This document shows positions 10,807-60,423 of a stretch of 64,000 nucleotides of DNA, one piece after another. Position numbers and translations under genes: made by a program. Source of the DNA: an uncultured virus (IMG/VR IMGVR_UViG_3300035497_000625) (Duplodnaviria > Heunggongvirae > Uroviricota > Caudoviricetes); the IMG/VR virus record IMGVR_UViG_3300035497_000625; one strand, given 5' to 3'. Each line of letters opens with the position of its first letter. Positions within the stretch are counted from its first letter, which is position 1. A model generated the notes under the pieces. That model saw only the letters and a list, made by a program, of their open reading frames with translations. It had not been told where the DNA came from and did no database searches.

Positions 10807-11355
10807 ATGATAGGTATTTATATGATTGAAAATATTCGTGACAATAAGAAGTACATTGGAAAATCACTTGATATATCTCGCCGCTGGGGAGAACATATAG
10901 AACAAGGTCGTTATGCGACTTCAGTTGAAGATGAGCTTCATTATGAACTATATGAGCATCCTTATAGGTTTAGATTCCAAATTTTAGAGGAATGTAAAGA
11001 AGATGAATTAAACGAAAGAGAAGCTTATTATATTAATCTTTATAATTCAATTGAAAAAGGTTATAATAAAATCAATGCTTCTATTGATTCATATCAAGAG
11101 AAAGAAGATAAAGAGCCAACTAAAAAGGAAATTATTCAATTAATTACAAGATTATTAGAAAAACCTTTATTAAAAGAAGATAAAGAAAAGATTAGTAAGT
11201 TCTTTAATCTCAAAGGAACAAGTGGAAAACAGTTAAAATGGCCCTCTGTTAAACGTTTGATAATTTCCCAAGGCTTTGACGTAATTGAAACCAGAAGAAA
11301 AGTTAATGGAGTGCAAGTAAATTGTAGTGTTATCAGATTAAGATGGGAGGATTAA
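10807..11355 (+). CDS. Free-standing GIY-YIG endonuclease
   Basis: MIGIYMIEN...KYIGKS.DI.RRW.EH, LNERE.YYI, GYN. Confidence 0.85.
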   Translation: MIGIYMIENIRDNKKYIGKSLDISRRWGEHIEQGRYATSVEDELHYELYEHPYRFRFQILEECKEDELNEREAYYINLYNSIEKGYNKINASIDSYQEKEDKEPTKKEIIQLITRLLEKPLLKEDKEKISKFFNLKGTSGKQLKWPSVKRLIISQGFDVIETRRKVNGVQVNCSVIRLRWED

Positions 11356-12077: not shown

Positions 12078-13175
12078 ATGCAGTGGGATTATATTGCTAC
12101 ACAAGAAAAAGAAGATGCCTATAGTGGTATTATTGAAGATTTAAATATCTTAATTCCAGATAATTTTAAAGAACTAACAAGAGATGAACAAGATAGGATT
12201 ATTAATCAAGTTATAAAAAAAATTAGGGAAATTAATATTTTCCCTATTTATTATTACAATCAAGAGGGAATTAGAAAAGAAATTTTAAGATGTATTAAAA
12301 GCAATCCAGTAATGGATTTTAATGCTGAAAATATAGATATTAGATCATATACTGGACAAGTCTTTCTTGATTTTATGTTTCCAAATTTATTTACATCTAC
12401 ACAAGGTAAAAACATGAGCCTATATGATCAATTTTATAATGAAACTTGTTTACACACAATTTTTCGTTTTGCTTTTAAACATGAAAAAATTTCTAATATG
12501 CGTAATCTTTTTATTCGTGTTGGAAGATTAAATGGTAAAATGCCAACAAATTATAATCCAATGAGAGCTAAAGCTATTTATGAATGTTTTTGTCCAAAAA
12601 ATGGTGTAATTTATGATTATTCTTGTGGTTTTGGCGCGCGAATGCTAGGAGCATTATCAAGTAAAAATAATTATACATATATAGGTGTAGAACCATGTAC
12701 TGAAACATATGATAATCTATTAAATCTAGGTTCTTATATTGAACAATGCACCAATAGAAAAAATAGTTATAAAATATATAAAGAATGTTCTGAAAATCAT
12801 ATAGAACCAAATTCGTCTGTTGATTTTATATTTTCATGCCCGCCTTTCTTTAATTTAGAGCATTATAGTACAGAAGATACTCAAAGTGAAATTAAATTTG
12901 CAAATTATGATAATTGGGTCAATAATTATGTGTATAATACTGTTAAAAATAGTTATGATATGTTAAAGACTGGAGGATATTTTGCTGTTGATATAAATAA
13001 CTATTCAGATGAGAGTAAAAATTATTATCATATTACAGAAGATTGGTTAGAACAGCTAGAAAAAGTTGGTTTTAAATTTATTAAGAAATATAAAATTGGT
13101 ACAAATGGAAAGAAGGGAAGAAAGAAACGTCAAGAAGATTATGATTTAGAATTTTTATATCTATTTCAAAAGTAA
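12078..13175 (+). CDS. SAM-dependent DNA amino-methyltransferase-like protein
   Basis: YDYSCGFGARMLG (motif I), YIGVEP, DFIFSCPPFF (motif IV-like), LKTGG. Confidence 0.8.
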   Translation: MQWDYIATQEKEDAYSGIIEDLNILIPDNFKELTRDEQDRIINQVIKKIREINIFPIYYYNQEGIRKEILRCIKSNPVMDFNAENIDIRSYTGQVFLDFMFPNLFTSTQGKNMSLYDQFYNETCLHTIFRFAFKHEKISNMRNLFIRVGRLNGKMPTNYNPMRAKAIYECFCPKNGVIYDYSCGFGARMLGALSSKNNYTYIGVEPCTETYDNLLNLGSYIEQCTNRKNSYKIYKECSENHIEPNSSVDFIFSCPPFFNLEHYSTEDTQSEIKFANYDNWVNNYVYNTVKNSYDMLKTGGYFAVDINNYSDESKNYYHITEDWLEQLEKVGFKFIKKYKIGTNGKKGRKKRQEDYDLEFLYLFQK

Positions 13176-13257
13176 CATGAAAATCAAGCTTTAATTAGCT
13201 TGATTTTTTCTTTATTTTCTGATATAATGATAATAGAAAAATAAAGGAGGAATTTAT

Positions 13258-13770
13258 ATGGAAAATATAAATCAAGAGAAAAAGAGAAAAGGTCCAAAGC
13301 CAGTAAAAAGAACGAAGAAAAACGTTATAAAGAATTTAGTTAAAGAAAATCAACGAATCCATGATTATGATAGTCCCTTTGGTGTTAAATTTTGGAATAA
13401 GATTTTAAAGGATTCAAAATATTTAGCTCATAATCATAAGGTTTTTGATAAAAATTTACCAACAATCATTGAAAGAGACTATGCATATTATAATAGATGT
13501 CTAGAAACAGAGACAGATGAAAAGAAGGTTGAAATATTAAAAAGGAAAATCTATCAACTAGAATATTTTCTTGATGATAGATGGAAAACTTTATTTGATG
13601 ATGATGCAAGATTAAAGCCCGACAAAAGAGAAATTATTTGGGCCGAGGGTAGAATCAATACATATGAAATTGAACGAGCAGAGAAAAGACGTAAATGGGA
13701 ACAAGAGCAAAAAGATAAAGGAATCGTTGTAAATTCCGCGGCGAAAAAGTATCATAAGAAAAAGAAATAA
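13258..13770 (+). CDS. Hypothetical basic protein
   Basis: AGGAGG RBS, own promoter, Lys-rich termini. Confidence 0.7.
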   Translation: MENINQEKKRKGPKPVKRTKKNVIKNLVKENQRIHDYDSPFGVKFWNKILKDSKYLAHNHKVFDKNLPTIIERDYAYYNRCLETETDEKKVEILKRKIYQLEYFLDDRWKTLFDDDARLKPDKREIIWAEGRINTYEIERAEKRRKWEQEQKDKGIVVNSAAKKYHKKKK

Positions 13771-13798
13771 TTTTGATTAAGTCAATCTCTTAATGGGA

Positions 13799-13827
13799 TT
13801 GACTTTTTCTAGTTTACATGGTATAAT
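13799..13827 (+). promoter_or_regulatory. sigmaA-type promoter driving the non-coding region
   Basis: TTGACT(13799)-17 nt-TATAAT(13822) with extended TG. Confidence 0.8.
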
Positions 13828-13833
13828 AATATT

Positions 13834-14415
13834 AGAAAAGTGAATATAGAATGCTTAACGTAAGTCGATTTAGTTCGTTGTTAAGCGGAGAGGGACGCTT
13901 AGACAGCTCTCCGTTATCAAAAAGGCTATTTAGGAATGTCGTGATGATATGCCTATCTAGTCCACGCTGTTAATCGTGTTGTGAGCGGGAAGTTCTAAAT
14001 CACACGTTATAGGAATTAATGTCAAAATCCATGACAGTTAATCGTAACTTATATCGTCAAAACGGGAACTTAAGCCGTCAACAAACGTATTGTTGTAAAA
14101 GAAGGGGAGGAACAAAGAAACCAGCTTGCCTATGGACTACCGAATAGGCGCACAACTTAAATTAACAAGGTTTTATTTTGCTGGTTTAATAAGTCTTGGC
14201 GTTTAGTATTTTAATAGTAGGTGTAAAACATAAGTCAAAAGTAAAGTTAGAGAAAAAGAGTTCAAAATCAATTTTCTCTAATTTTTGATGAGCGTAGCTC
14301 ATTAATAGGGTGAATTATAAATAAAAACAAGTGATTGAGTAACAGCTCAAATAACACTCCGAAATAATTAAATAACTCAAACCTAGGCGGCTGGAATCAA
14401 AACTAGCCGCCTTAA
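13834..14415 (+). ncRNA. Large structured ncRNA (~580 nt), ROOL-like candidate
   Basis: No ORF >=60 aa on either strand, own promoter, higher GC, more than 10 helices and a candidate pseudoknot; family assignment is inference from size and context only. Confidence 0.65.
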
Positions 14416-14566
14416 CTATTACCCAAACGAATCACAAACAAAATCTCCAGCGGGCAAAACGAAAATTAATTGACTTTGCCGCTAAAGAGTGATATAATAA
14501 ATATAGAAAATGAGGGGAGGGACACAGAGAGAAGAAAATAAACGCGAGAACTTGAGGAGGAATCAC

Positions 14567-16226
14567 ATGAGTACAGAATATAATATAGATAATATAAAGC
14601 ACCTCGATACCAGAAATGCGATGCGTCAACGTATCCAAATGTATCTTGGAACAGACGATACAGAGGGCATCTATCAAGCCCTAAAGGAAATCATTAATAA
14701 CTCGACTGATGAGGCAATCGCTGGATATGGTGATAGCATCATTCTTACACTTGATGAGACAGACGGAACGATATCATGCCGTGACTTCGGACGTGGTGTT
14801 CCTTTTGGTATCAAAGATGATAGGAATATATTGGTTGCAATTTATACTGAATCTCATACAGGTGGTAAGTTTGATAAAGGTTCTTATAAAAATAGTAGCG
14901 GATTGAACGGAATCGGAGGAACGGCAGTATGTATGTCATCTTCCAAATTTATCGTAACGAGTTACCGAAGTGGAACATCAGCGACAGCAATCTTTGAAGA
15001 AGGATTACTTAAATCCTATGAAGAAACTACAACAAAAGAAAAAGACGGAACTCTAATAACATTCCAACCAGATAAAAAAGTTTTTATTAACGCAACTGAA
15101 TCTTTTTCTTTTGATAGAATTTGTGAAGAAATAAAAAATATTGCCTATTTAAATAAAGGTATTAAATTCATAATAAAAAATCAAGATAATAGTAAATCTC
15201 AAGAATACTATTCTAAAAATGGTATTGCAGATTTCATTAAAGATGTAGCTAAAAAACCATTAATGAAAAAACCAATTATTTGTTCTGCTACTGATGGAAC
15301 AGATGAAGTTGAAGTAGCCTTTATTTGGACTGGCGGACAAGAAAAGAGTTATGTGTTTGTTAATGGACTATATTGTCCAGAGGGAGGAACTCCTGTTACT
15401 GGAGCGAAAACTGCTATTACAACACAAATTAAAAAATTAAGTGGAAAGAATTTAGAACCTGAATCGATGAGAAAGGGATTAATCTATGCGGTTAATTGTA
15501 AAGTAGCAAACCCATCATTTGCGAATCAAACAAAATCTAAAATTAATACGCCGTCTCTTAGAACTTTGACTTCTCAAGCAATGAAAGAGGGATTAGAAGA
15601 ATTTAGTAAGACTAATGATTTCTCTGTAATTATTGAAATGATGGTTAAGGTGCAACGAGCTGAAATTGCGGCTGATAAAGCAAGAGAGGCGATTTTATCA
15701 AGTAATAATGATATTCAAAAAGAATTAAAGAAAAAAGCAATACTAGTAGAAAAGCTTGCTGACTGCAGAAGACATGATGAATCCTCACAATTAATGATAT
15801 GTGAAGGAAAATCAGCAAAGGGAGCACTTGTTAAAGCGAGAGATTCTGAAACTACAGCTTGCTTTGATTTAAGAGGTAAGATTATTAATGCTTTAAAAAA
15901 TCCTGCTGATAAAGTTGCCGCAAACGAGGAAGTAAAACAATTACACGTTGCTTTTGGTTGCGGCGTGGGAGATAAATTTAATATTAAAAAATTACGTTAT
16001 GGTAAAATTGTTATAATGGCGGATATGGATAAAGATGGATATGATATAGTATGTTTAGTTTTAACATTTCTCTATTGTCATTATCCAGAATTAATTAAAG
16101 CAGGTAAAGTATATTGGGGTGTAACTCCATTATTCAAAGTTGAAAGTAAAGGTAAAAAATATTTTGCTTATAACGAAAAAGAACTAAAAGAATTACCTAA
16201 AGGTGATATAACTAGATTAAAGGGGT
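14567..16226 (+). CDS. gyrB: DNA gyrase/type IIA topoisomerase subunit B, exon 1
   Basis: GHKL motifs EIINNSTDE, DFGRGVP, HTGGKF, GLNGIG; TOPRIM EGKSA, LRGK, DMDKDG; ends ITRLKG+T; ATG 14567 follows GAGGAGG. Confidence 0.92.
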
Positions 16227-17288
16227 AAGAGATAGTCTGGCCCTAACACATCTAATCTATTTTATTAATAGAGGTTAAGAAGATAAATCTTAGCTAACGA
16301 GGGAGTCTGAACGTTCTCGTAATCCGTTTTTCTTAAAGTTAAGGCTTAGGAAAACTACTTCAAGAATAGAAGATAATCTCGTGAGTTACTCAATAGTCAC
16401 TCACGTTATATTAGGAGTGATTTTATGATAGGAATTTATAAATTTACAAATAAAATTAATGGACATAGTTATATTGGACAAAGTATTGATATTGAAAAAC
16501 GTAGAAAAACACATATACAACGAGCTTTTTGGAATGTTGAAAGTAATAAAGAATATGAAAAAACGTTCTATCGTGCTCTTCGTAAATATGGTACAGAAAA
16601 TTTTGATTTTGAAGTATTAAAAACTTGTCCACAAGAAGAATTAAACGATTGGGAAATATATTATATAAAGTTATATGATACTTATAAACATGGTTACAAT
16701 GAAGACGAAGGTGGTAATATGGTTCTTCGTATTCAAGATGGCGAAAGGCATCCACGACATAAATTATCTGAAGCTGATGTATATAATATTCGTGAAGCAT
16801 ATAATAAGCATCAGATAAAAGATGAGGTGTATGCACAATATAAAGATAAAATTGGACCAAGTGGATTTCATAAAATTTGGAATGGTGATACTTGGACAAA
16901 GGTACATATGGATGTTTTCACCAAAGAAAATATAGCTTTTCATACTTGGATGAGGAATAGCCACCCTGGAAAAGGATCTGGTCGAAGACTTAGTATAGAG
17001 GAAATACGAGAAATTCGACGTAGATCTTCATCCGAAACTTTAGATGAATTATACCAAGACTTTAAAGATAAAGTAACTAGAGAAGTGTTTAAAAGAATTT
17101 ATAATAGGAAAACCTATATTGAAATTGAGTAACTTGTATCGGCCATCCCTAAGGTTGAAATGCTGGGGAGTAGGGACGTTATTAATACACGTCTTGGTTT
17201 TAGGAAACGAAGCCAATGAGAACCGAAACGATGTGCTGTTTTTACAGTAAGAAATGGTCAGTACCATTAGAAATAATGGAGTAATACG
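16227..17288 (+). mobile_element. Group I intron in gyrB carrying a GIY-YIG homing endonuclease
   Basis: Exon ends in U pairing with GCCCU (P1); P3 CACATC/GATGTG; P7 GGCCA/TGGTC; terminal G 17288; splicing restores RLKG-LGE. Confidence 0.9.
16425..17132 (+). CDS. Intron-encoded GIY-YIG homing endonuclease
   Basis: MIGIYKFTNKING.SYIGQS, GYN, C-terminal GERHP..KLSE..V..IR DNA-binding repeats. Confidence 0.9.
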   Translation: MIGIYKFTNKINGHSYIGQSIDIEKRRKTHIQRAFWNVESNKEYEKTFYRALRKYGTENFDFEVLKTCPQEELNDWEIYYIKLYDTYKHGYNEDEGGNMVLRIQDGERHPRHKLSEADVYNIREAYNKHQIKDEVYAQYKDKIGPSGFHKIWNGDTWTKVHMDVFTKENIAFHTWMRNSHPGKGSGRRLSIEEIREIRRRSSSETLDELYQDFKDKVTREVFKRIYNRKTYIEIE

Positions 17289-20973: not shown

Positions 20974-21044
20974 GCAGGTATAGTTCAACGGTAGAATGTG
21001 TGCTTCCCAAGCACAAGATGAGGTTTCGATTACCTCTACTTGCT
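20974..21044 (+). tRNA. tRNA-Gly(CCC)
   Basis: Acceptor GCAGGTA/TACTTGC, anticodon arm TGTGC-TTCCCAA-GCACA, T arm GAGGT-TTCGATT-ACCTC; no encoded CCA. Confidence 0.85.
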
Positions 21045-21050
21045 TTAAAT

Positions 21051-21123
21051 GAAATTGTAATTCAGTCGGAAGAATGCCAAACTTTTAATTTGGAAGTCGG
21101 GAGTTCAAATCTCCCCAGTTTCA
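21051..21123 (+). tRNA. tRNA-Lys(TTT)
   Basis: Acceptor GAAATTG/CAGTTTC, anticodon arm CCAAA-CTTTTAA-TTTGG, T arm GGGAG-TTCAAAT-CTCCC. Confidence 0.85.
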
Positions 21124-21180
21124 CTTAATTGATTTTTCCTATAGATTATGATATAATAATTATAGAAAATCAAGAGAAAT

Positions 21181-21252
21181 TAGAGAGTAGTCAAGTGGTG
21201 AGACAATAAATTTTGATTTTATGATACGTAGGTTCGAATCCTACCTCTCTAG
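21181..21252 (+). tRNA. tRNA-Gln(TTG)
   Basis: Acceptor TAGAGAG/CTCTCTA, anticodon arm ATAAA-TTTTGAT-TTTAT, T arm GTAGG-TTCGAAT-CCTAC; own upstream promoter. Confidence 0.85.
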
Positions 21253-21320
21253 CTTAGAGTTTATCTCTATAATGTAAAAAAAAATAAATGAATAAAGTGT
21301 TATCTTTGGAGGATATGTGT

Positions 21321-39682: not shown

Positions 39683-40442
39683 CAAATTGTTATCATATAA
39701 GTTTTTTATCTTATATTTCTATTACTTTCTATTCGTAATAGTTCAGCATAACTTTTCAACTATTTAATTTTTCCATGTCTTATAATTTTTAATATCATTA
39801 ATGGTATGAATTGAAACATTATATAAATCAGCCAATTCTCGACTAGAATGTGTATTATCAGCTCTAATATAATCAACTTGCATTTGATTTAATTTAGACC
39901 AAGGACAATCTTCTCCTTGTAAATGTAACTTATTTTTTATTGCATGATCTCTATTTTCTTGATTTGTTACCCATTCTAAATTTTCTACTGAATTATTATT
40001 TTTATTACCATCCTTATGATTTACCTGTTCCTTATTCTCTGGATTTGGAATATATTTTTCAGCTACTAATCTATGAATAAAATATCGCTTACCACAAAGA
40101 TTAACTCTTAAATATCCTTTACTATTTGGTTGAGGTTTTAAGATGTGATTGTTCCTACTATTTATAACTTCTCCAGTCTTAGTAATAATATATTCATCCA
40201 TTGTCATTGATTTTTGTGACATAGAATCCACTCCTTTTTTTATTTTTATTATAACATATTTTTATTAAGGAGTCAATAATTAAATAGTGTCGCGGCCTCG
40301 TGGGAGTGTTATATCTTTTCAACTCCTATGCGTTGTCCCTGACTTAATTCTATTAAGCCTTCGGTTCGGATTAGCATTTCAGCCTTCCCGCTTAATTCCG
40401 CGATTATTCGATATAAGTCACCTTATAAAGTGGCAGGTTTCT
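39683..40442 (-). mobile_element. Group I intron (760 nt) with HNH endonuclease
   Basis: P1 UGGU/GCCA with U.G; P3 TCGCGG/CCGCGA; P7 GCATA/TATGC; terminal G 39683; splice gives GA-W-W-VII. Confidence 0.88.
39764..40231 (-). CDS. Intron-encoded HNH homing endonuclease
   Basis: GYLRV.L, IHRLVA..YIPNP, VNHKDGNK.NN...NLEW, C-terminal HTH. Confidence 0.9.
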   Translation of the reverse strand: MDSMSQKSMTMDEYIITKTGEVINSRNNHILKPQPNSKGYLRVNLCGKRYFIHRLVAEKYIPNPENKEQVNHKDGNKNNNSVENLEWVTNQENRDHAIKNKLHLQGEDCPWSKLNQMQVDYIRADNTHSSRELADLYNVSIHTINDIKNYKTWKN

Positions 40443-57678: not shown

Positions 57679-58579
57679 CAATATCTTCAAATTATAAATT
57701 TTGCTCTATAGCTTTTTTCGCCAATTGATATTTTCTATCTAAATAGATAGAAGCATCATCATATAACATATGTAAAATTTTATTTACTTCTCGTTTTCCA
57801 CTTACTACAAATTTTGGAACACTTCTATTTCTATCTAATTTCTTATTAATTTGCCATAAATTCATTACATAATTTAATATATCTTCTGTTCCAACCAAAT
57901 TAATTCGATATCTAATTGAATTAACACTATTTTTTTGTGGATAAATACTACCATCGCCATCAAATAATCCTCTGCTCCAATGAATTAATAACTCATTTGA
58001 CATTTGCATTTGAGGTGTTAAAGTTAACGATTTTTTTCTGTATAAACCTTGTTTTTCTAAATCTAAACAGATTTTTTGATCATATAACCTAAAAAAACGA
58101 TAAGGTTTATTTTGATTATTAATTTTATCTTTATATGGTGCATTTGTTTCTAAAAAGTTTTGAAATTTTACTATATGTTCTTTATCTTTGTCTGCCAATC
58201 CTAGAATTAATTCACCTCGTTCTGGATCAACATATCCGTCAGCGTATAAAAAACCTAGCCAATAAGCTTTTTCTTCTGAATCAATCTTCTCAAAAACATT
58301 TGAATTGCGTTCATAAATCATATTTAATTCTCCTTTAAATATTAAACTTATTAAATTTATAATTCTGCACATATAGTGCCTTTAGCTTCTTTTTGTTATA
58401 CTAAAGTTGAGACTGTCGCACGCCCATTGACATGGGCCTCTTTCACTCAGTCGTTCACGGTGCTTATTCGAGCAATCTCGATGAGCTTCCGCCCTGTTAT
58501 CCACTGCTGGATGTCCAAGTCAATTAGAAAGAGTTATTCAATGCAGTTTATGTATTATGCTGCAAGGACACCGTACTTG
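57679..58579 (-). mobile_element. Group I intron 3 of tape measure gene (901 nt) with LAGLIDADG ORF
   Basis: P1 ACAU/GUGU with U.G; P3 CTCTTTC/GAAAGAG; P7 GACTG/CAGTC; terminal G 57679; splice AT|C GGT. Confidence 0.88.
57692..58321 (-). CDS. Intron-encoded double-motif LAGLIDADG homing endonuclease
   Basis: AYWLGFLYADGYV and WSRGLFDGDGSI, YLDRKY; ATG 58321 follows AGGAG. Confidence 0.9.
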   Translation of the reverse strand: MIYERNSNVFEKIDSEEKAYWLGFLYADGYVDPERGELILGLADKDKEHIVKFQNFLETNAPYKDKINNQNKPYRFFRLYDQKICLDLEKQGLYRKKSLTLTPQMQMSNELLIHWSRGLFDGDGSIYPQKNSVNSIRYRINLVGTEDILNYVMNLWQINKKLDRNRSVPKFVVSGKREVNKILHMLYDDASIYLDRKYQLAKKAIEQNL

Positions 58580-59179: not shown

Positions 59180-60423
59180 CAATTTTCTTATTTTTAAAAA
59201 CGTTACTTTTTAAACTAGTTTATACTACTCTATATCTCTATAGAAGTTGAGACTATATCAAACCATAAAGGTATCACTACTTCGGATCACTTGATCCTAC
59301 ACAGTCCTTGACCGACTGTTAGTCGTTGAACTTTTTTCCTAAAATCAATAGGAAACTTAGCTGCTGATTTTCCAAATCTTTATATTATCACCATACCTTA
59401 TCTACAATCAGCCGCGAAATTATTACTAATTTCGTTTGGTAATAAAGATTTAAGGACCTTCCAGCAATCCAATGATTTTCAAGGGTTGGTAGGGAAGAAT
59501 TATATTTCTTCCCAATAAAATCCGCAACTCATTCCATGTCGCTTAGCTGCACTACTAATAGCAGCATAAGTGACACCATATTCTTTTGCGGCGGTAGTAA
59601 AACTTGGCCATTCTTTTATTAAATTATGGTTTTTGTCATATTGAGCAACTTTATGCTGACCTTTATGACCATTCTTTTGAGCATTTATCATATTTTCTGA
59701 ATTAGTAATACATCTTAAATTGCTCAAATCATTATTTGAACGATTACCATCTATATGATCAATTACATAATCTTTAGGAATTTCACCTTTAAAAGTTTCC
59801 CAAACTAATCTATGTGCAGAAAACATTTTGTCTTGTAAATTAAAACGGACATATCCATTACGCTTTGTGCCATAAGATAATTTTTTAGTTACACAATTTT
59901 TTATAACACCATTATTAGAAATTTCATATATACCTTCAAATCCTTTAAGAGGTCTCCATTCTACATTATCAACACTAACTTTAGTCACTGCATTAATTTT
60001 ATTCTTTTTTATTGGTTCTTCACACCATTGAAGATTATCAACATTATTATTATACTTATTACCATCAATATGGCTTACCATTGAATAATTATTAGGATTT
60101 GGTATGAAAGTTTCTGCTACTAAACGATGTACCATCACGCTTTTTGCTTTACCATTAATAGTAAGTTGTACATTACGATATTCATTTCTCGCTAGAGTTC
60201 CTTTTAATTCTCTCTTGGTTTTAAGATTTATAACTATGCCTTCTGTATTAATTGTATAGTCTGTTTCCTGTCCATCAATCATAATTCTTTTTGTTTCACT
60301 CATAATTTAATTCCTCCGATATATTATTTTATATTTTATACTAAGATCTCTTTCTTAGTATGTATATATTATATCATAGGATACAAAAATAGTCAATACT
60401 ATCCATTTTTATAATCTAGGTTT
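59180..60423 (-). mobile_element. Group I intron 1 of tape measure gene (1244 nt) with HNH ORF in the P1 loop
   Basis: Core lies after the HNH stop: TGCTG/CAGCA (P4), GTTCAACGACTA and ATATAGTC (P7), terminal G 59180; guide CCAACCCTTG complements the junction CAAGGG|TTGG. Confidence 0.82.
59500..60303 (-). CDS. Intron-encoded tandem HNH (NUMOD4/HNH x2 + NUMOD1-like) endonuclease
   Basis: VHRLVA..FIPNP..HIDGNK.NN..NL.W and AHRLVW..IDHIDGNRSNN.LSNL; C-terminal VAQYD...IKEWPS...AAK. Confidence 0.9.
   Translation of the reverse strand: MSETKRIMIDGQETDYTINTEGIVINLKTKRELKGTLARNEYRNVQLTINGKAKSVMVHRLVAETFIPNPNNYSMVSHIDGNKYNNNVDNLQWCEEPIKKNKINAVTKVSVDNVEWRPLKGFEGIYEISNNGVIKNCVTKKLSYGTKRNGYVRFNLQDKMFSAHRLVWETFKGEIPKDYVIDHIDGNRSNNDLSNLRCITNSENMINAQKNGHKGQHKVAQYDKNHNLIKEWPSFTTAAKEYGVTYAAISSAAKRHGMSCGFYWEEI

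What the first reader, a model, noticed from the sequence alone, without database searches (positions are those of the whole stretch)
13834..14415. ~580-nt promoter-driven, densely structured non-coding RNA with a candidate pseudoknot
Seen: the largest ORF-free, intron-free stretch in a gene-dense arm has its own consensus promoter (13799-13827) and is full of helices. Examples: GCTTAAC/GTTAAGC (13853/13880), CGGAGAG/CTCTCCG (13886/13907), TAGG..ATGTC/GATAT..CCTA (13931-13955), AAGTTC/GAACTT (13990/14066) enclosing TGTCA/TGACA, AAACCAGC/GCTGGTTT (14118/14180) enclosing GCCTAT/ATAGGC, TTAGAGAAAA/TTTTCTCTAA, ATGAGC/GCTCAT, TTGAG/CTCAA and AGGCGGCT/AGCCGCCT. The loop GGACTA (14134-14139) can pair with TAGTCC (13958-13963) about 175 nt upstream; alternatively GCCTATCTAGTCCA pairs with TGGACTA..ATAGGC, which would be a switch. 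Established: large ornate RNAs of unknown function (ROOL, GOLLD) occur in Firmicute phages, and ROOL is about this size. Inference: either a divergent ROOL or a new large RNA class.
Basis: partly seen in the sequence, partly recalled or inferred. Interest (0 to 1): 0.85.

Follow-up and report, generated by a model that had tools for sequence, protein, structure and literature searches.

The report
New large structured phage RNA gene
The gene-free stretch upstream of the phage gyrase gene is a stand-alone gene for a 450-600-base, intricately folded non-coding RNA that matches no catalogued RNA family; its job is still unknown.

Summary
Window 13834-14415 has no ORF over 42 aa under code 11 and none over 61 aa under TAG=Q or code 4. 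A near-consensus promoter precedes it. It folds better than shuffles (z -4.5), unlike two flanking coding controls (z +0.8 and -1.4).

Motif scans of IMG/VR found homologues in 11 contigs, which fall into four lineages of large Bacillota-type phages. Each copy has its own promoter and a hairpin with a U-run. Eleven helices are collinear in all four lineages and many covary: 81-84% of cells pair, against 26-51% when partners are slid.

No Rfam family matches at E<=10 in any lineage, so it is not ROOL or GOLLD. Contigs from three RNA libraries cover 13860-14453 and bridge the internal hairpin.

It competes with the base of helix P2, so it may be a switch.

Best reading: a new family of large ornate phage RNA that acts in trans as a folded particle. 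Function is unknown. This scan had already flagged the same RNA on other DNA (e1-5752960).

The parts
13779..13805 (+). Intrinsic terminator of the upstream gene (13258-13770). Its 3' arm supplies the -35 hexamer of the RNA promoter.
   Evidence: 11-pair stem, loop of 5, T-run.
13799..13827 (+). Promoter of the RNA gene: TTGACT, 17 nt, TGgTATAAT (extended -10).
   Evidence: 11 of 12 matches; the same TTGACT-17-TAnAnT promoter stands at the equivalent place in all 7 distinct homologues.
13834..14415 (+). The non-coding RNA gene. The start is predicted 7 nt after the -10. The 3' end is not mapped; candidates are about 14286, about 14362 and about 14412.
   Evidence: No ORF. z -4.5. RNA-library contigs cover 13916-14362, 13860-14361, 13898-14220 and 14230-14453.
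13853..13886 (+). P0 hairpin, GCUUAAC/GUUAAGC.
   Evidence: a helix of different sequence sits directly 5' of P1 in every lineage (UUAAG/CUUAA, UAGAAUAG/CUAUUCUA, UUAAGGU/ACCUUAA).
13886..13913 (+). P1 hairpin, CGGAGAG/CUCUCCG.
   Evidence: B has CGCAGU/ACUGCG, C has CGGGGAG/CUCCACG, D has CGCAGUG/CACUGCG.
13918..13924 (+). Invariant single-stranded joiner CAAAAAG.
   Evidence: identical in all lineages.
13924..13962 (+). P2 long hairpin. Outer strands are 13924-34/13952-62 and inner strands 13936-40/13946-50. The apical loop is of GNRA type: GUGA(U), with GGGA(U), GGGA and GAGA(U) in the relatives.
   Evidence: helix 2: 16 pairs, 95.8% of cells paired, 7 pairs changed on both sides. Three conserved G-U pairs would be C-A on the other strand.
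13980..14004 (+). P3 hairpin, UGUGA/UCACA.
   Evidence: B has AAUAA/UUAUU, D has GGUA/UACU. helix 3: 83% paired, 2 pairs changed on both sides.
14005..14056 (+). P4 helix (CG 14005-06/14055-56 plus UAUAGG/CUUAUA 14008-13/14048-53). It encloses a variable insert.
   Evidence: B has UUAAUA/UAUUAA, D has UUAAGA/UCUUAA. The insert is 34 nt here, 10 in B, 19 in C and 107 in D.
14054..14062 (+). Invariant junction strand UCGUCAAAA.
14062..14078 (+). P5 hairpin, ACGG/CCGU. Its loop holds the palindrome CUUAAG.
   Evidence: helix 1: 95.8% paired, C-G changes to A-U; loop palindromes are UUAA, UAUA and UUAA in B, C and D.
14079..14095 (+). P6 hairpin, CAACAA/UUGUUG, with the invariant loop ACGUA.
   Evidence: helix 2: 100% of cells paired, 3 of 6 pairs changed on both sides (UGACAA/UUGUCA, UUAUAA/UUAUAA).
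14096..14110 (+). Conserved UAAAAG followed by the G-rich block GGGGAGG (14104-14110).
   Evidence: In B, C and D it can pair with the UGAUUAYCUC motif of a 5' domain that the window lineage lacks (my reading; inferred).
14118..14187 (+). P7 (AAACCAGC/GCUGGUUU), enclosing P8 (GCCUAU/AUAGGC, 14128-33/14144-49).
   Evidence: P7 is GAAACUGA/UCAGUUUC, GAAACCG/CGGUUUC and AUACUU/AAGUAU in the relatives. P8 is GUCU/AGAC, CUACUUA/UAAGUAG and CCCUUA/UAAGGG.
14134..14139 (+). P8 loop GGACUA, candidate partner of UAGUCC at 13958-13963. This would be a pseudoknot or a strand-exchange switch with the base of P2.
   Evidence: C has GGAGAA/UUCUCC, B GGAGA/UUUCC, D GGAGAA/UUUUUC. The window loop fits only the window P2 end (6 bp against 3-4).
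14247..14286 (+). T1: hairpin UUAGAGAAAA/UUUUCUCUAA followed by UUUUU. It looks like a terminator but is bridged by RNA-library contigs.
   Evidence: an equivalent hairpin is in all lineages; the U-run after it is read; two contigs (X5, X9) run across it, one (X8) begins inside it.
14305..14318 (+). Conserved block AUAGGGUGAAUUAU downstream of T1.
   Evidence: Read. Similar blocks follow T1 in B, C and D (GGGAAAAAUCUAU, GGGGAAUCUAU, GGGUGAAAUAU).
14385..14412 (+). 3' hairpin AGGCGGCU/AGCCGCCU. It is specific to the window lineage and may be the true 3' terminal stem.
   Evidence: A contig of run X8 covers it (14230-14453).
14470..14498 (+). Separate promoter of gyrB. The coding frame opens at 14510; the likely start is ATG 14567.
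   Evidence: 11 of 12 matches with TG; gyrB domains.

Best explanation
This is an independent gene for a large, highly structured non-coding RNA of a family not in Rfam.

Shown:
- It has its own near-consensus sigma-70/sigma-A-type extended -10 promoter.
- It holds no ORF.
- It contains eleven collinear helices (P0-P8, with P2 counted as an outer and an inner helix, plus a hairpin with a U-run). All eleven are kept in four phage lineages, many through compensatory changes.
- The helices are joined by invariant A-rich strands (CAAAAAG, UCGUCAAAA, UAAAAG), and P2 carries a GNRA-type loop.
- The sequence occurs in contigs of RNA libraries.

Inferred:
- It is transcribed early by the host RNA polymerase.
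- It is a discrete, stable transcript of about 450-600 nt.
- It acts in trans as a compactly folded particle, not by simple antisense pairing and not as a leader of gyrB.
- The P8 loop either forms a pseudoknot with, or displaces, the base of P2.

Most likely mode, at low confidence: like the other large ornate phage RNAs (ROOL, GOLLD), it builds a tertiary and perhaps homo-oligomeric architecture. The palindromic P5 loop is a candidate self-kissing contact. That architecture would bind or enclose a host or phage macromolecule during infection.
For: Gene structure:
- No ORF.
- Promoter with 11 of 12 matches, conserved in 7 of 7 distinct homologues.

Folding:
- z is -4.5, -3.3, -4.7 and -2.4 in the four lineages.
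- Two coding controls give +0.8 and -1.4.

Covariation:
- RNAalifold on a plain MAFFT alignment gives 59 pairs, 27 with a compensatory change.
- On alignments fitted to covariance models, 84.3% and 80.6% of cells pair, against 39-50% and 26-51% with slid partners.
- Covariation scores are 0.359 and 0.325, with 0 of 500 shuffles reaching them.
- All 11 helices are found in the same order in all 4 lineages, with different sequences.
- Conserved G-U pairs in P2 fix the + strand.

Transcription:
- RNA-library contigs cover the gene in 3 of 3 RNA runs laid.
- X5 and X9 run across the T1 hairpin. X8's second contig begins inside it (14230) and runs on to 14453.
- Two contigs end at 14361 and 14362 where a DNA contig continues, which is a weak hint of an end.

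Independence from gyrB:
- A second full promoter separates the RNA from gyrB.
- The downstream gene differs between lineages: gyrB, mom-like, nrdG, ligase.
Against: - There are only four lineages (7 distinct sequences), so few independent substitutions underlie the covariation.
- P1, P4 and P8 show unpaired cells in the automatic alignments. The registers were resolved by hand.
- The expression evidence comes from assembled contigs. They show no strand, no ends and no level, and DNA carry-over in RNA libraries cannot be excluded.
- The window lineage lacks the roughly 110-140-nt 5' domain of the other three.
- No partner, substrate or phenotype is known. Oligomerisation is a guess from loop palindromes that AU-rich loops often contain by chance.
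Confidence: 0.8

Rival explanations
1. It is a cis-acting leader or attenuator. The structure decides whether transcription passes the T1 hairpin into the downstream DNA-metabolism gene.
For: A terminator-like hairpin with a U-run lies inside the transcribed region, and RNA-library contigs bridge it. In lineages B and C the next gene follows within about 70-100 nt, and no consensus promoter was seen there by eye. The P8 loop and P2 form alternative pairings.
Against: In the window a full consensus promoter stands between the RNA and gyrB. The downstream gene differs in all four lineages. A length of 450-600 nt with eleven conserved helices is far larger than known attenuators or riboswitches. 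No riboswitch model matches.
Confidence: 0.07
2. It is a ribozyme, for example one that processes phage or host RNA or cleaves itself.
For: It is large, has invariant unpaired nucleotides at junctions, and has a GNRA-type loop and a candidate pseudoknot. These traits are shared with RNase P and with group I and II introns, according to Weinberg 2017 (passages read).
Against: No ribozyme model in Rfam matches at E<=10. No joints or cut sites appear in the contigs (tables 5 and 6, which are contig-level only). No substrate is evident.
Confidence: 0.08
3. It is a replication-origin transcript: a structured primer RNA like ColE1 RNA II or a T4 origin R-loop RNA.
For: A strong promoter and a roughly 500-nt structured RNA lie inside the replication and nucleotide-metabolism module, next to RNase H, ligase, gyrase and DnaE genes. 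The comparison with ColE1 RNA II is recalled, not tested.
Against: The gene sits at different places in related genomes. In lineage D it lies between the NT5C and ligase genes and is absent from the gyrB locus. Cumulative GC skew shows no turn at 13.8 kb. The conserved features are RNA helices with G-U pairs, not DNA repeats.
Confidence: 0.04
4. It encodes a small hydrophobic peptide, read across the P7/P8 region downstream of the Shine-Dalgarno-like GGGGAGG.
For: The window has a 24-codon frame from ATG 14132 (my reading). Lineage C has a 37-codon frame starting 3 nt after GGAGGG (my reading). The two peptides share an F-rich stretch.
Against: In the window the ATG lies about 21 nt from the GGGGAGG block. 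Lineage B has no usable start and needs TAG read-through. In lineage D the frame is broken (my reading). The same nucleotides form P7 and P8 with fully compensatory changes.
Confidence: 0.02
5. It is a very divergent ROOL or GOLLD RNA.
For: Its size is similar (ROOL averages 581 nt; Weinberg 2017, passages read). It lies in a Bacillota-type phage: its DnaE is 40% identical to SPbeta and Enterococcus phage homologues.
Against: Neither model matches at E<=10 in 4 of 4 lineages. It is not next to tRNA genes: they lie 6.5 kb away in the window and about 40 kb away in G003.
Confidence: 0.03

Closest known systems
ROOL RNA (Rfam RF03087)
   Same: A large non-coding RNA of about 450-600 nt, carried by phages of Bacillota-type hosts. 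It has many helices and multistem junctions, a candidate pseudoknot and no known function. It forms a transcription unit of its own.
   Different: The ROOL covariance model does not match at E<=10 in any of the four lineages. The gene is not adjacent to tRNA genes. The family is far narrower: 11 IMG/VR contigs. Whether it forms a nanocage is unknown.
GOLLD RNA (Rfam RF01998)
   Same: A phage-borne large ornate RNA. Like GOLLD, as described by Kretsch et al. (passages read), it has a conserved core and a variable 5' domain. Here the window lineage lacks that domain altogether.
   Different: There is no model match. It is shorter than GOLLD, which exceeds 800 nt. No tRNA is embedded or adjacent.
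OLE RNA and other large bacterial RNAs (RNase P, tmRNA, group I and II introns)
   Same: Comparable size and complexity, with A-rich junction strands and a GNRA-type loop.
   Different: No Rfam match. ARAGORN finds no tmRNA. It does not interrupt a gene and has its own promoter, so it is not an intron.
Candidate structured RNAs of viruses from IMG/VR (Fremin, Bhatt and Kyrpides 2023, PMC10690425)
   Same: The data source is the same (IMG/VR intergenic regions) and the discovery logic is the same (covariation).
   Different: Their candidates are 29-151 nt long (section 2.1 read), and no RNA of about 500 nt is described. Their alignment files could not be searched, so fragments of this RNA may be listed there.

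Membership tests
ROOL (RF03087) | Match to the Rfam covariance model at or above its gathering score | tested here: not met
   No ROOL row at gathering score or at E<=10 in the window, lineages B and C or lineage D.
ROOL (RF03087) | [quoted passage not shown] | tested here: inconclusive
   The size is similar. Here I resolve 11 helices, at least two junctions and one candidate pseudoknot. The topologies were not compared because the ROOL consensus drawing is not held.
ROOL / GOLLD | Frequent location next to tRNA genes in phages and prophages | tested here: not met
   It is in a phage. The nearest tRNAs are 6.5 kb downstream in the window and about 40 kb away in G003.
ROOL / GOLLD | Homo-oligomeric RNA-only nanocage (Kretsch et al., passages read) | not testable with these tools
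   The only lead is palindromic P5 loops.
GOLLD (RF01998) | Match to the Rfam covariance model | tested here: not met
   no GOLLD row.
Riboswitch or transcription attenuator | Lies in the 5' leader of the regulated gene with no promoter between, and matches a known aptamer model | tested here: not met
   A consensus promoter at 14470-14498 separates it from gyrB. No cis-regulatory model matches above chance.
Group I / II intron, RNase P RNA, tmRNA | Covariance-model match; for introns, interruption of a host gene | tested here: not met
   Searches give no match, and one search finds no tmRNA. The flanking genes are intact.
Stand-alone structured ncRNA gene (generic) | Own promoter, no ORF, structure conserved through compensatory changes, and presence in RNA libraries | tested here: met
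   promoter; no ORF; covariation; RNA-library contigs.

The most novel reading that the evidence does not exclude
This would be a third, structurally unrelated class of phage-borne RNA-only quaternary assembly. The palindromic P5 loop (CUUAAG, UUAA, UAUA, UUAA) would act as a self-kissing bridge. The P8 loop/P2 strand exchange would act as an assembly or cargo-triggered switch. The RNA would be made early by large Bacillota phages of anaerobic habitats.
Probability: 0.15. Interest if true: 0.85.

Novelty: new variant of a known kind. Interest (0 to 1): 0.66.

Why it matters
Bacterial and phage RNAs of this size and complexity are rare. Those characterised so far (ribosomal RNAs, RNase P, introns, OLE, ROOL, GOLLD) have each revealed unusual biochemistry or architecture.

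A new, compact family offers a ready target for in-vitro folding, probing and cryo-EM without needing the host. It comes with four natural variants, one of them a 5'-truncated minimal form, and it is present in RNA libraries.

It also shows that large phages outside the ROOL and GOLLD hosts carry their own ornate RNAs. That bears on what this whole class does during infection.

Tried and rejected
Similarity searches that found nothing real:
- DNA similarity to GenBank phages: no match at E 1e-5. At E<=10 there were only 24-29-nt chance matches.
- Genome contigs motif scan: 0 of 14 matches are real by nhmmer, so no prophage or host was found.
- Metagenome contigs: only 2 of 9 matches are real, both lineage C.
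- Model R2 on SPBc2, Enterococcus phage VRE9_3 and EF1: no match beyond one at E 0.3.
- Five different motif patterns on IMG/VR and a sixth returned only subsets of the same 11 contigs, apart from one chance match in a coding region (L014).

Sequencing runs:
- RNA-library contigs do not cover gyrB, and two of the three runs do not cover the upstream ORF.
- The runs' habitat labels and small word shares are not used.

Structure work that led nowhere:
- mafft-qinsi is not installed.
- A systematic search for conserved long-range 5-mers was swamped by AT-rich chance matches.
- The covariance-model alignments did not fix the registers of P1 and P8, so I resolved those by hand.

Neighbouring basic protein (13258-13770) as a possible partner:
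- It has no Pfam or PHROG family and no usable Atlas hit.
- Its gene is not next to the RNA in lineage D.
- The idea was dropped.

Other points:
- The helix AAGTTC/GAACTT was rejected as a conserved feature.
- TAG or TGA recoding does not open a frame in the region.
- Literature searches found no description of this RNA. The supplement search of PMC10690425 could not read the large alignment files.

Full report
THE OBSERVATION

Window 13834-14415 lies between a 170-aa gene of unknown function (13258-13770) and gyrB. The gyrB frame opens at 14510 and its likely start is 14567.

Inside the region the longest ORFs are 40, 42, 38 and 30 aa under code 11. Reading TAG as Gln or using code 4 opens nothing longer than 48 and 61 aa.

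A promoter-like site at 13799-13827 reads TTGACT, 17 nt, TG-extended TATAAT, with 11 of 12 matches. It ties for best of the 12 sites found in 13000-15000. Its -35 hexamer lies in the 3' arm of the upstream gene's terminator (13779-13805). A second promoter of the same quality (14470-14498) serves gyrB.

The + strand folds to -149.3 kcal/mol, z -4.50, with 0 of 100 shuffles as stable. The - strand gives z -2.86. Two flanking 582-nt coding windows give z +0.79 and -1.38.

KNOWN FAMILIES

Rfam 15 finds only three tRNAs in the whole window at gathering score. In 13700-14600 at E<=10 it finds only weak hairpin-level hits to small sRNA models. No ROOL, GOLLD, OLE, RNase P, tmRNA, intron or riboswitch model appears. 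The same holds for the homologues of lineages B and C and D. ARAGORN finds no tmRNA.

RELATIVES

GenBank phages hold no similar DNA.

Starting from the upstream protein and from conserved motifs, scans of IMG/VR returned the same 11 contigs each time. Two metagenome contigs of lineage C were added. None of the 14 motif matches in 185,579 species genomes is real.

The copies reduce to 7 distinct sequences in four lineages:
- W: the window type, with a 99.2% identical variant.
- B: L011, on a 152-kb contig.
- C: L013, on a 180-kb contig with terminal repeats, plus one variant.
- D: L060, plus one variant.

Each large contig searched holds one copy.

The nearest named relatives by DnaE, at 40% amino-acid identity, are SPbeta-like Bacillus phages and 140-kb Enterococcus phages. 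Model R2 finds nothing in three of those genomes.

The gene always lies in the nucleotide-metabolism and replication arm, but its neighbours differ:
- W: NrdG, three ORFs, the RNA, then gyrB.
- B: NrdG, the RNA, then a mom-like gene.
- C: NrdD, two ORFs, the RNA, then NrdG.
- D: GIY-YIG, NT5C, the RNA, then ligase.

In lineage D the gyrB locus has no RNA. GIY-YIG and HNH homing endonuclease genes are frequent nearby.

STRUCTURE

All 7 distinct copies have a TTGACT-17-TAnAnT promoter at the same relative place. All four lineages fold better than shuffles: z -4.5, -3.3, -4.7 and -2.4.

RNAalifold on a plain MAFFT alignment predicts 59 pairs, 27 of them with a compensatory change.

I built two covariance models from my reading of the window's helices and realigned the copies.
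- Domain I: 84.3% of 204 cells pair, against 39-50% when the 3' partner is slid by 1-3 columns. Eleven pairs changed on both sides. The covariation score is 0.359 against at most 0.204 for the slid versions. None of 500 shuffles reaches it.
- Domain II: 80.6% of 144 cells pair, against 26-51% slid. Ten pairs changed on both sides. The score is 0.325 against at most 0.125, with 0 of 500 shuffles reaching it.
- These alignments lean towards the structure they were fitted to. P1, P4 and P8 kept register errors.

I therefore located each helix by hand in each lineage. All eleven helices (P0, P1, P2 outer and inner, P3-P8, T1) occur in the same order with similar spacing and mostly different sequences. 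Examples:
- P6: CAACAA/UUGUUG, UGACAA/UUGUCA, UUAUAA/UUAUAA.
- P7: AAACCAGC/GCUGGUUU, GAAACUGA/UCAGUUUC, GAAACCG/CGGUUUC, AUACUU/AAGUAU.

Other conserved features:
- The joiners CAAAAAG, UCGUCAAAA and UAAAAG and the P6 loop ACGUA are invariant.
- The P2 loop is of GNRA type.
- P4 encloses an insert of 10 to 107 nt.
- Three G-U pairs conserved in P2 would be C-A on the opposite strand, which fixes the + strand.

Lineages B, C and D carry an extra 5' domain: a hairpin, then UGAUUAYCUC, then a second hairpin, then CUAACAAKUGAAUAG. The window lineage lacks it and starts at the AAGUGAAUAUAG motif. By my reading, the pyrimidine motif can pair with the conserved G-rich block (14104-14110). This is inferred, not tested.

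THE PSEUDOKNOT

The potential is kept elsewhere: C has GGAGAA/UUCUCC, B has GGAGA/UUUCC and D has GGAGAA/UUUUUC.

For B and C a purine loop against a pyrimidine strand is unremarkable; 57-71% of shuffled loops do as well. For W and D only 3% and 8% do.

The informative fact is the cross-table. The W loop fits only the W strand (6 bp against 3-4), and the other loops do not fit the W strand (3-4 bp against 5-8 among themselves). So the W lineage changed the loop, the 3' strand and the 5' strand of P2 together.

That is one event, and the pairing excludes the bottom five pairs of P2. It is therefore either a strand-exchange switch or an inter-molecular contact.

EXPRESSION

Seven RNA-library runs each hold 0.14-0.22 of the sampled words of window 13200-15200. 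In the three that I laid, contigs with at most 5 differences cover 13916-14362 (X5), 13898-14220 and 14230-14453 (X8), and 13860-14361 (X9).

X5 and X9 run across the T1 hairpin and its U-run (14247-14286), and X8's second contig begins inside it (14230). So T1 is not an absolute end. Two contigs stop at 14361 and 14362 without loose ends, where a DNA-run contig (14192-14600) goes on.

Contigs give no strand, no ends and no levels. DNA in RNA libraries cannot be excluded.

WHAT IT IS AND HOW IT LIKELY WORKS

Shown: a stand-alone, promoter-driven, non-coding, structurally conserved RNA gene that belongs to no catalogued family.

Inferred: early transcription by host polymerase, a stable transcript of about 450-600 nt, and action in trans as a folded particle.

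Its closest functional analogues are ROOL and GOLLD, which are also phage-borne, large and of unknown role. Kretsch et al. (passages read) show that these form RNA-only cages held by kissing loops and A-minor contacts. They also show that contacts first inferred from covariation turned out to be inter-molecular. The palindromic P5 loops (CUUAAG, UUAA, UAUA, UUAA) and the P8/P2 contact are candidates for such bridges here, but the evidence is thin.

The rivals each have specific evidence against them, listed in their sections. They are a cis-acting leader, a ribozyme, an origin primer, a small peptide and a divergent ROOL.

NOVELTY

No paper found in three full-text searches describes this RNA. 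The IMG/VR survey of Fremin et al. lists candidates of only 29-151 nt (section 2.1 read). Its alignment files could not be searched, so fragments may be listed there.

An earlier agent of this scan reached the same reading on other DNA (e1-5752960).
- four lineages;
- the collinear helix map;
- the RNA-library contigs, and the finding that they bridge the internal hairpin;
- the variable 5' domain;
- the concerted change behind the pseudoknot.

Noticed in passing
L011 4910-5800; G003 (L084 7610-7703): In the lineage B phage the gene after the RNA matches the Mom family (PF25680, E 3.9e-24) only if 7 in-frame TAG codons are read through. The same genome encodes a 94-nt tRNA with anticodon CTA. 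The neighbouring NrdG frame ends at a TAG: read through, it runs only 4 codons further. This suggests gene-specific amber recoding in that phage. The window phage has no such tRNA.
   Followed up: partly
window 13779-13827, 13179-13228, 14449-14498; L009 4510-4560: Transcription units are joined by compact modules in which the hairpin of a terminator overlaps or supplies the TTGAC -35 of the next extended -10 promoter.
   Followed up: no
window 10807-11355, 16425-17132, 39764-40231, 57692-58372, 59500-60303: The genome is dense in free-standing homing-endonuclease genes. There are two GIY-YIG genes, one of them between gyrB and gyrA, plus two HNH genes and one other endonuclease gene. This fits the shuffled gene order around the RNA among relatives.
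   Followed up: no
L060 1925-2200: In lineage D about 290 nt of GC-rich hairpins follow the RNA's hairpin plus U-run before the ligase gene. Neither their transcription nor their role is known.
   Followed up: no
window 14510-14567: The gyrB frame is open from ATG 14510. However, ATG 14567 follows a GAGGAGG ribosome-binding site, and the homologue in L009 starts at the equivalent place. The real start is probably 14567.
   Followed up: partly
window 13839-13849 and 14305-14318: A motif near the RNA 5' end (GUGAAUAUAG) resembles the conserved block after the T1 hairpin (GGGUGAAUUAU). Both copies are kept in all lineages. They are similar rather than complementary, and their meaning is unknown.
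   Followed up: no
window 20974-21253: A cluster of three tRNA genes (Gly-ccc, Lys-ttt, Gln-ttg) lies 6.5 kb downstream of the RNA.
   Followed up: no
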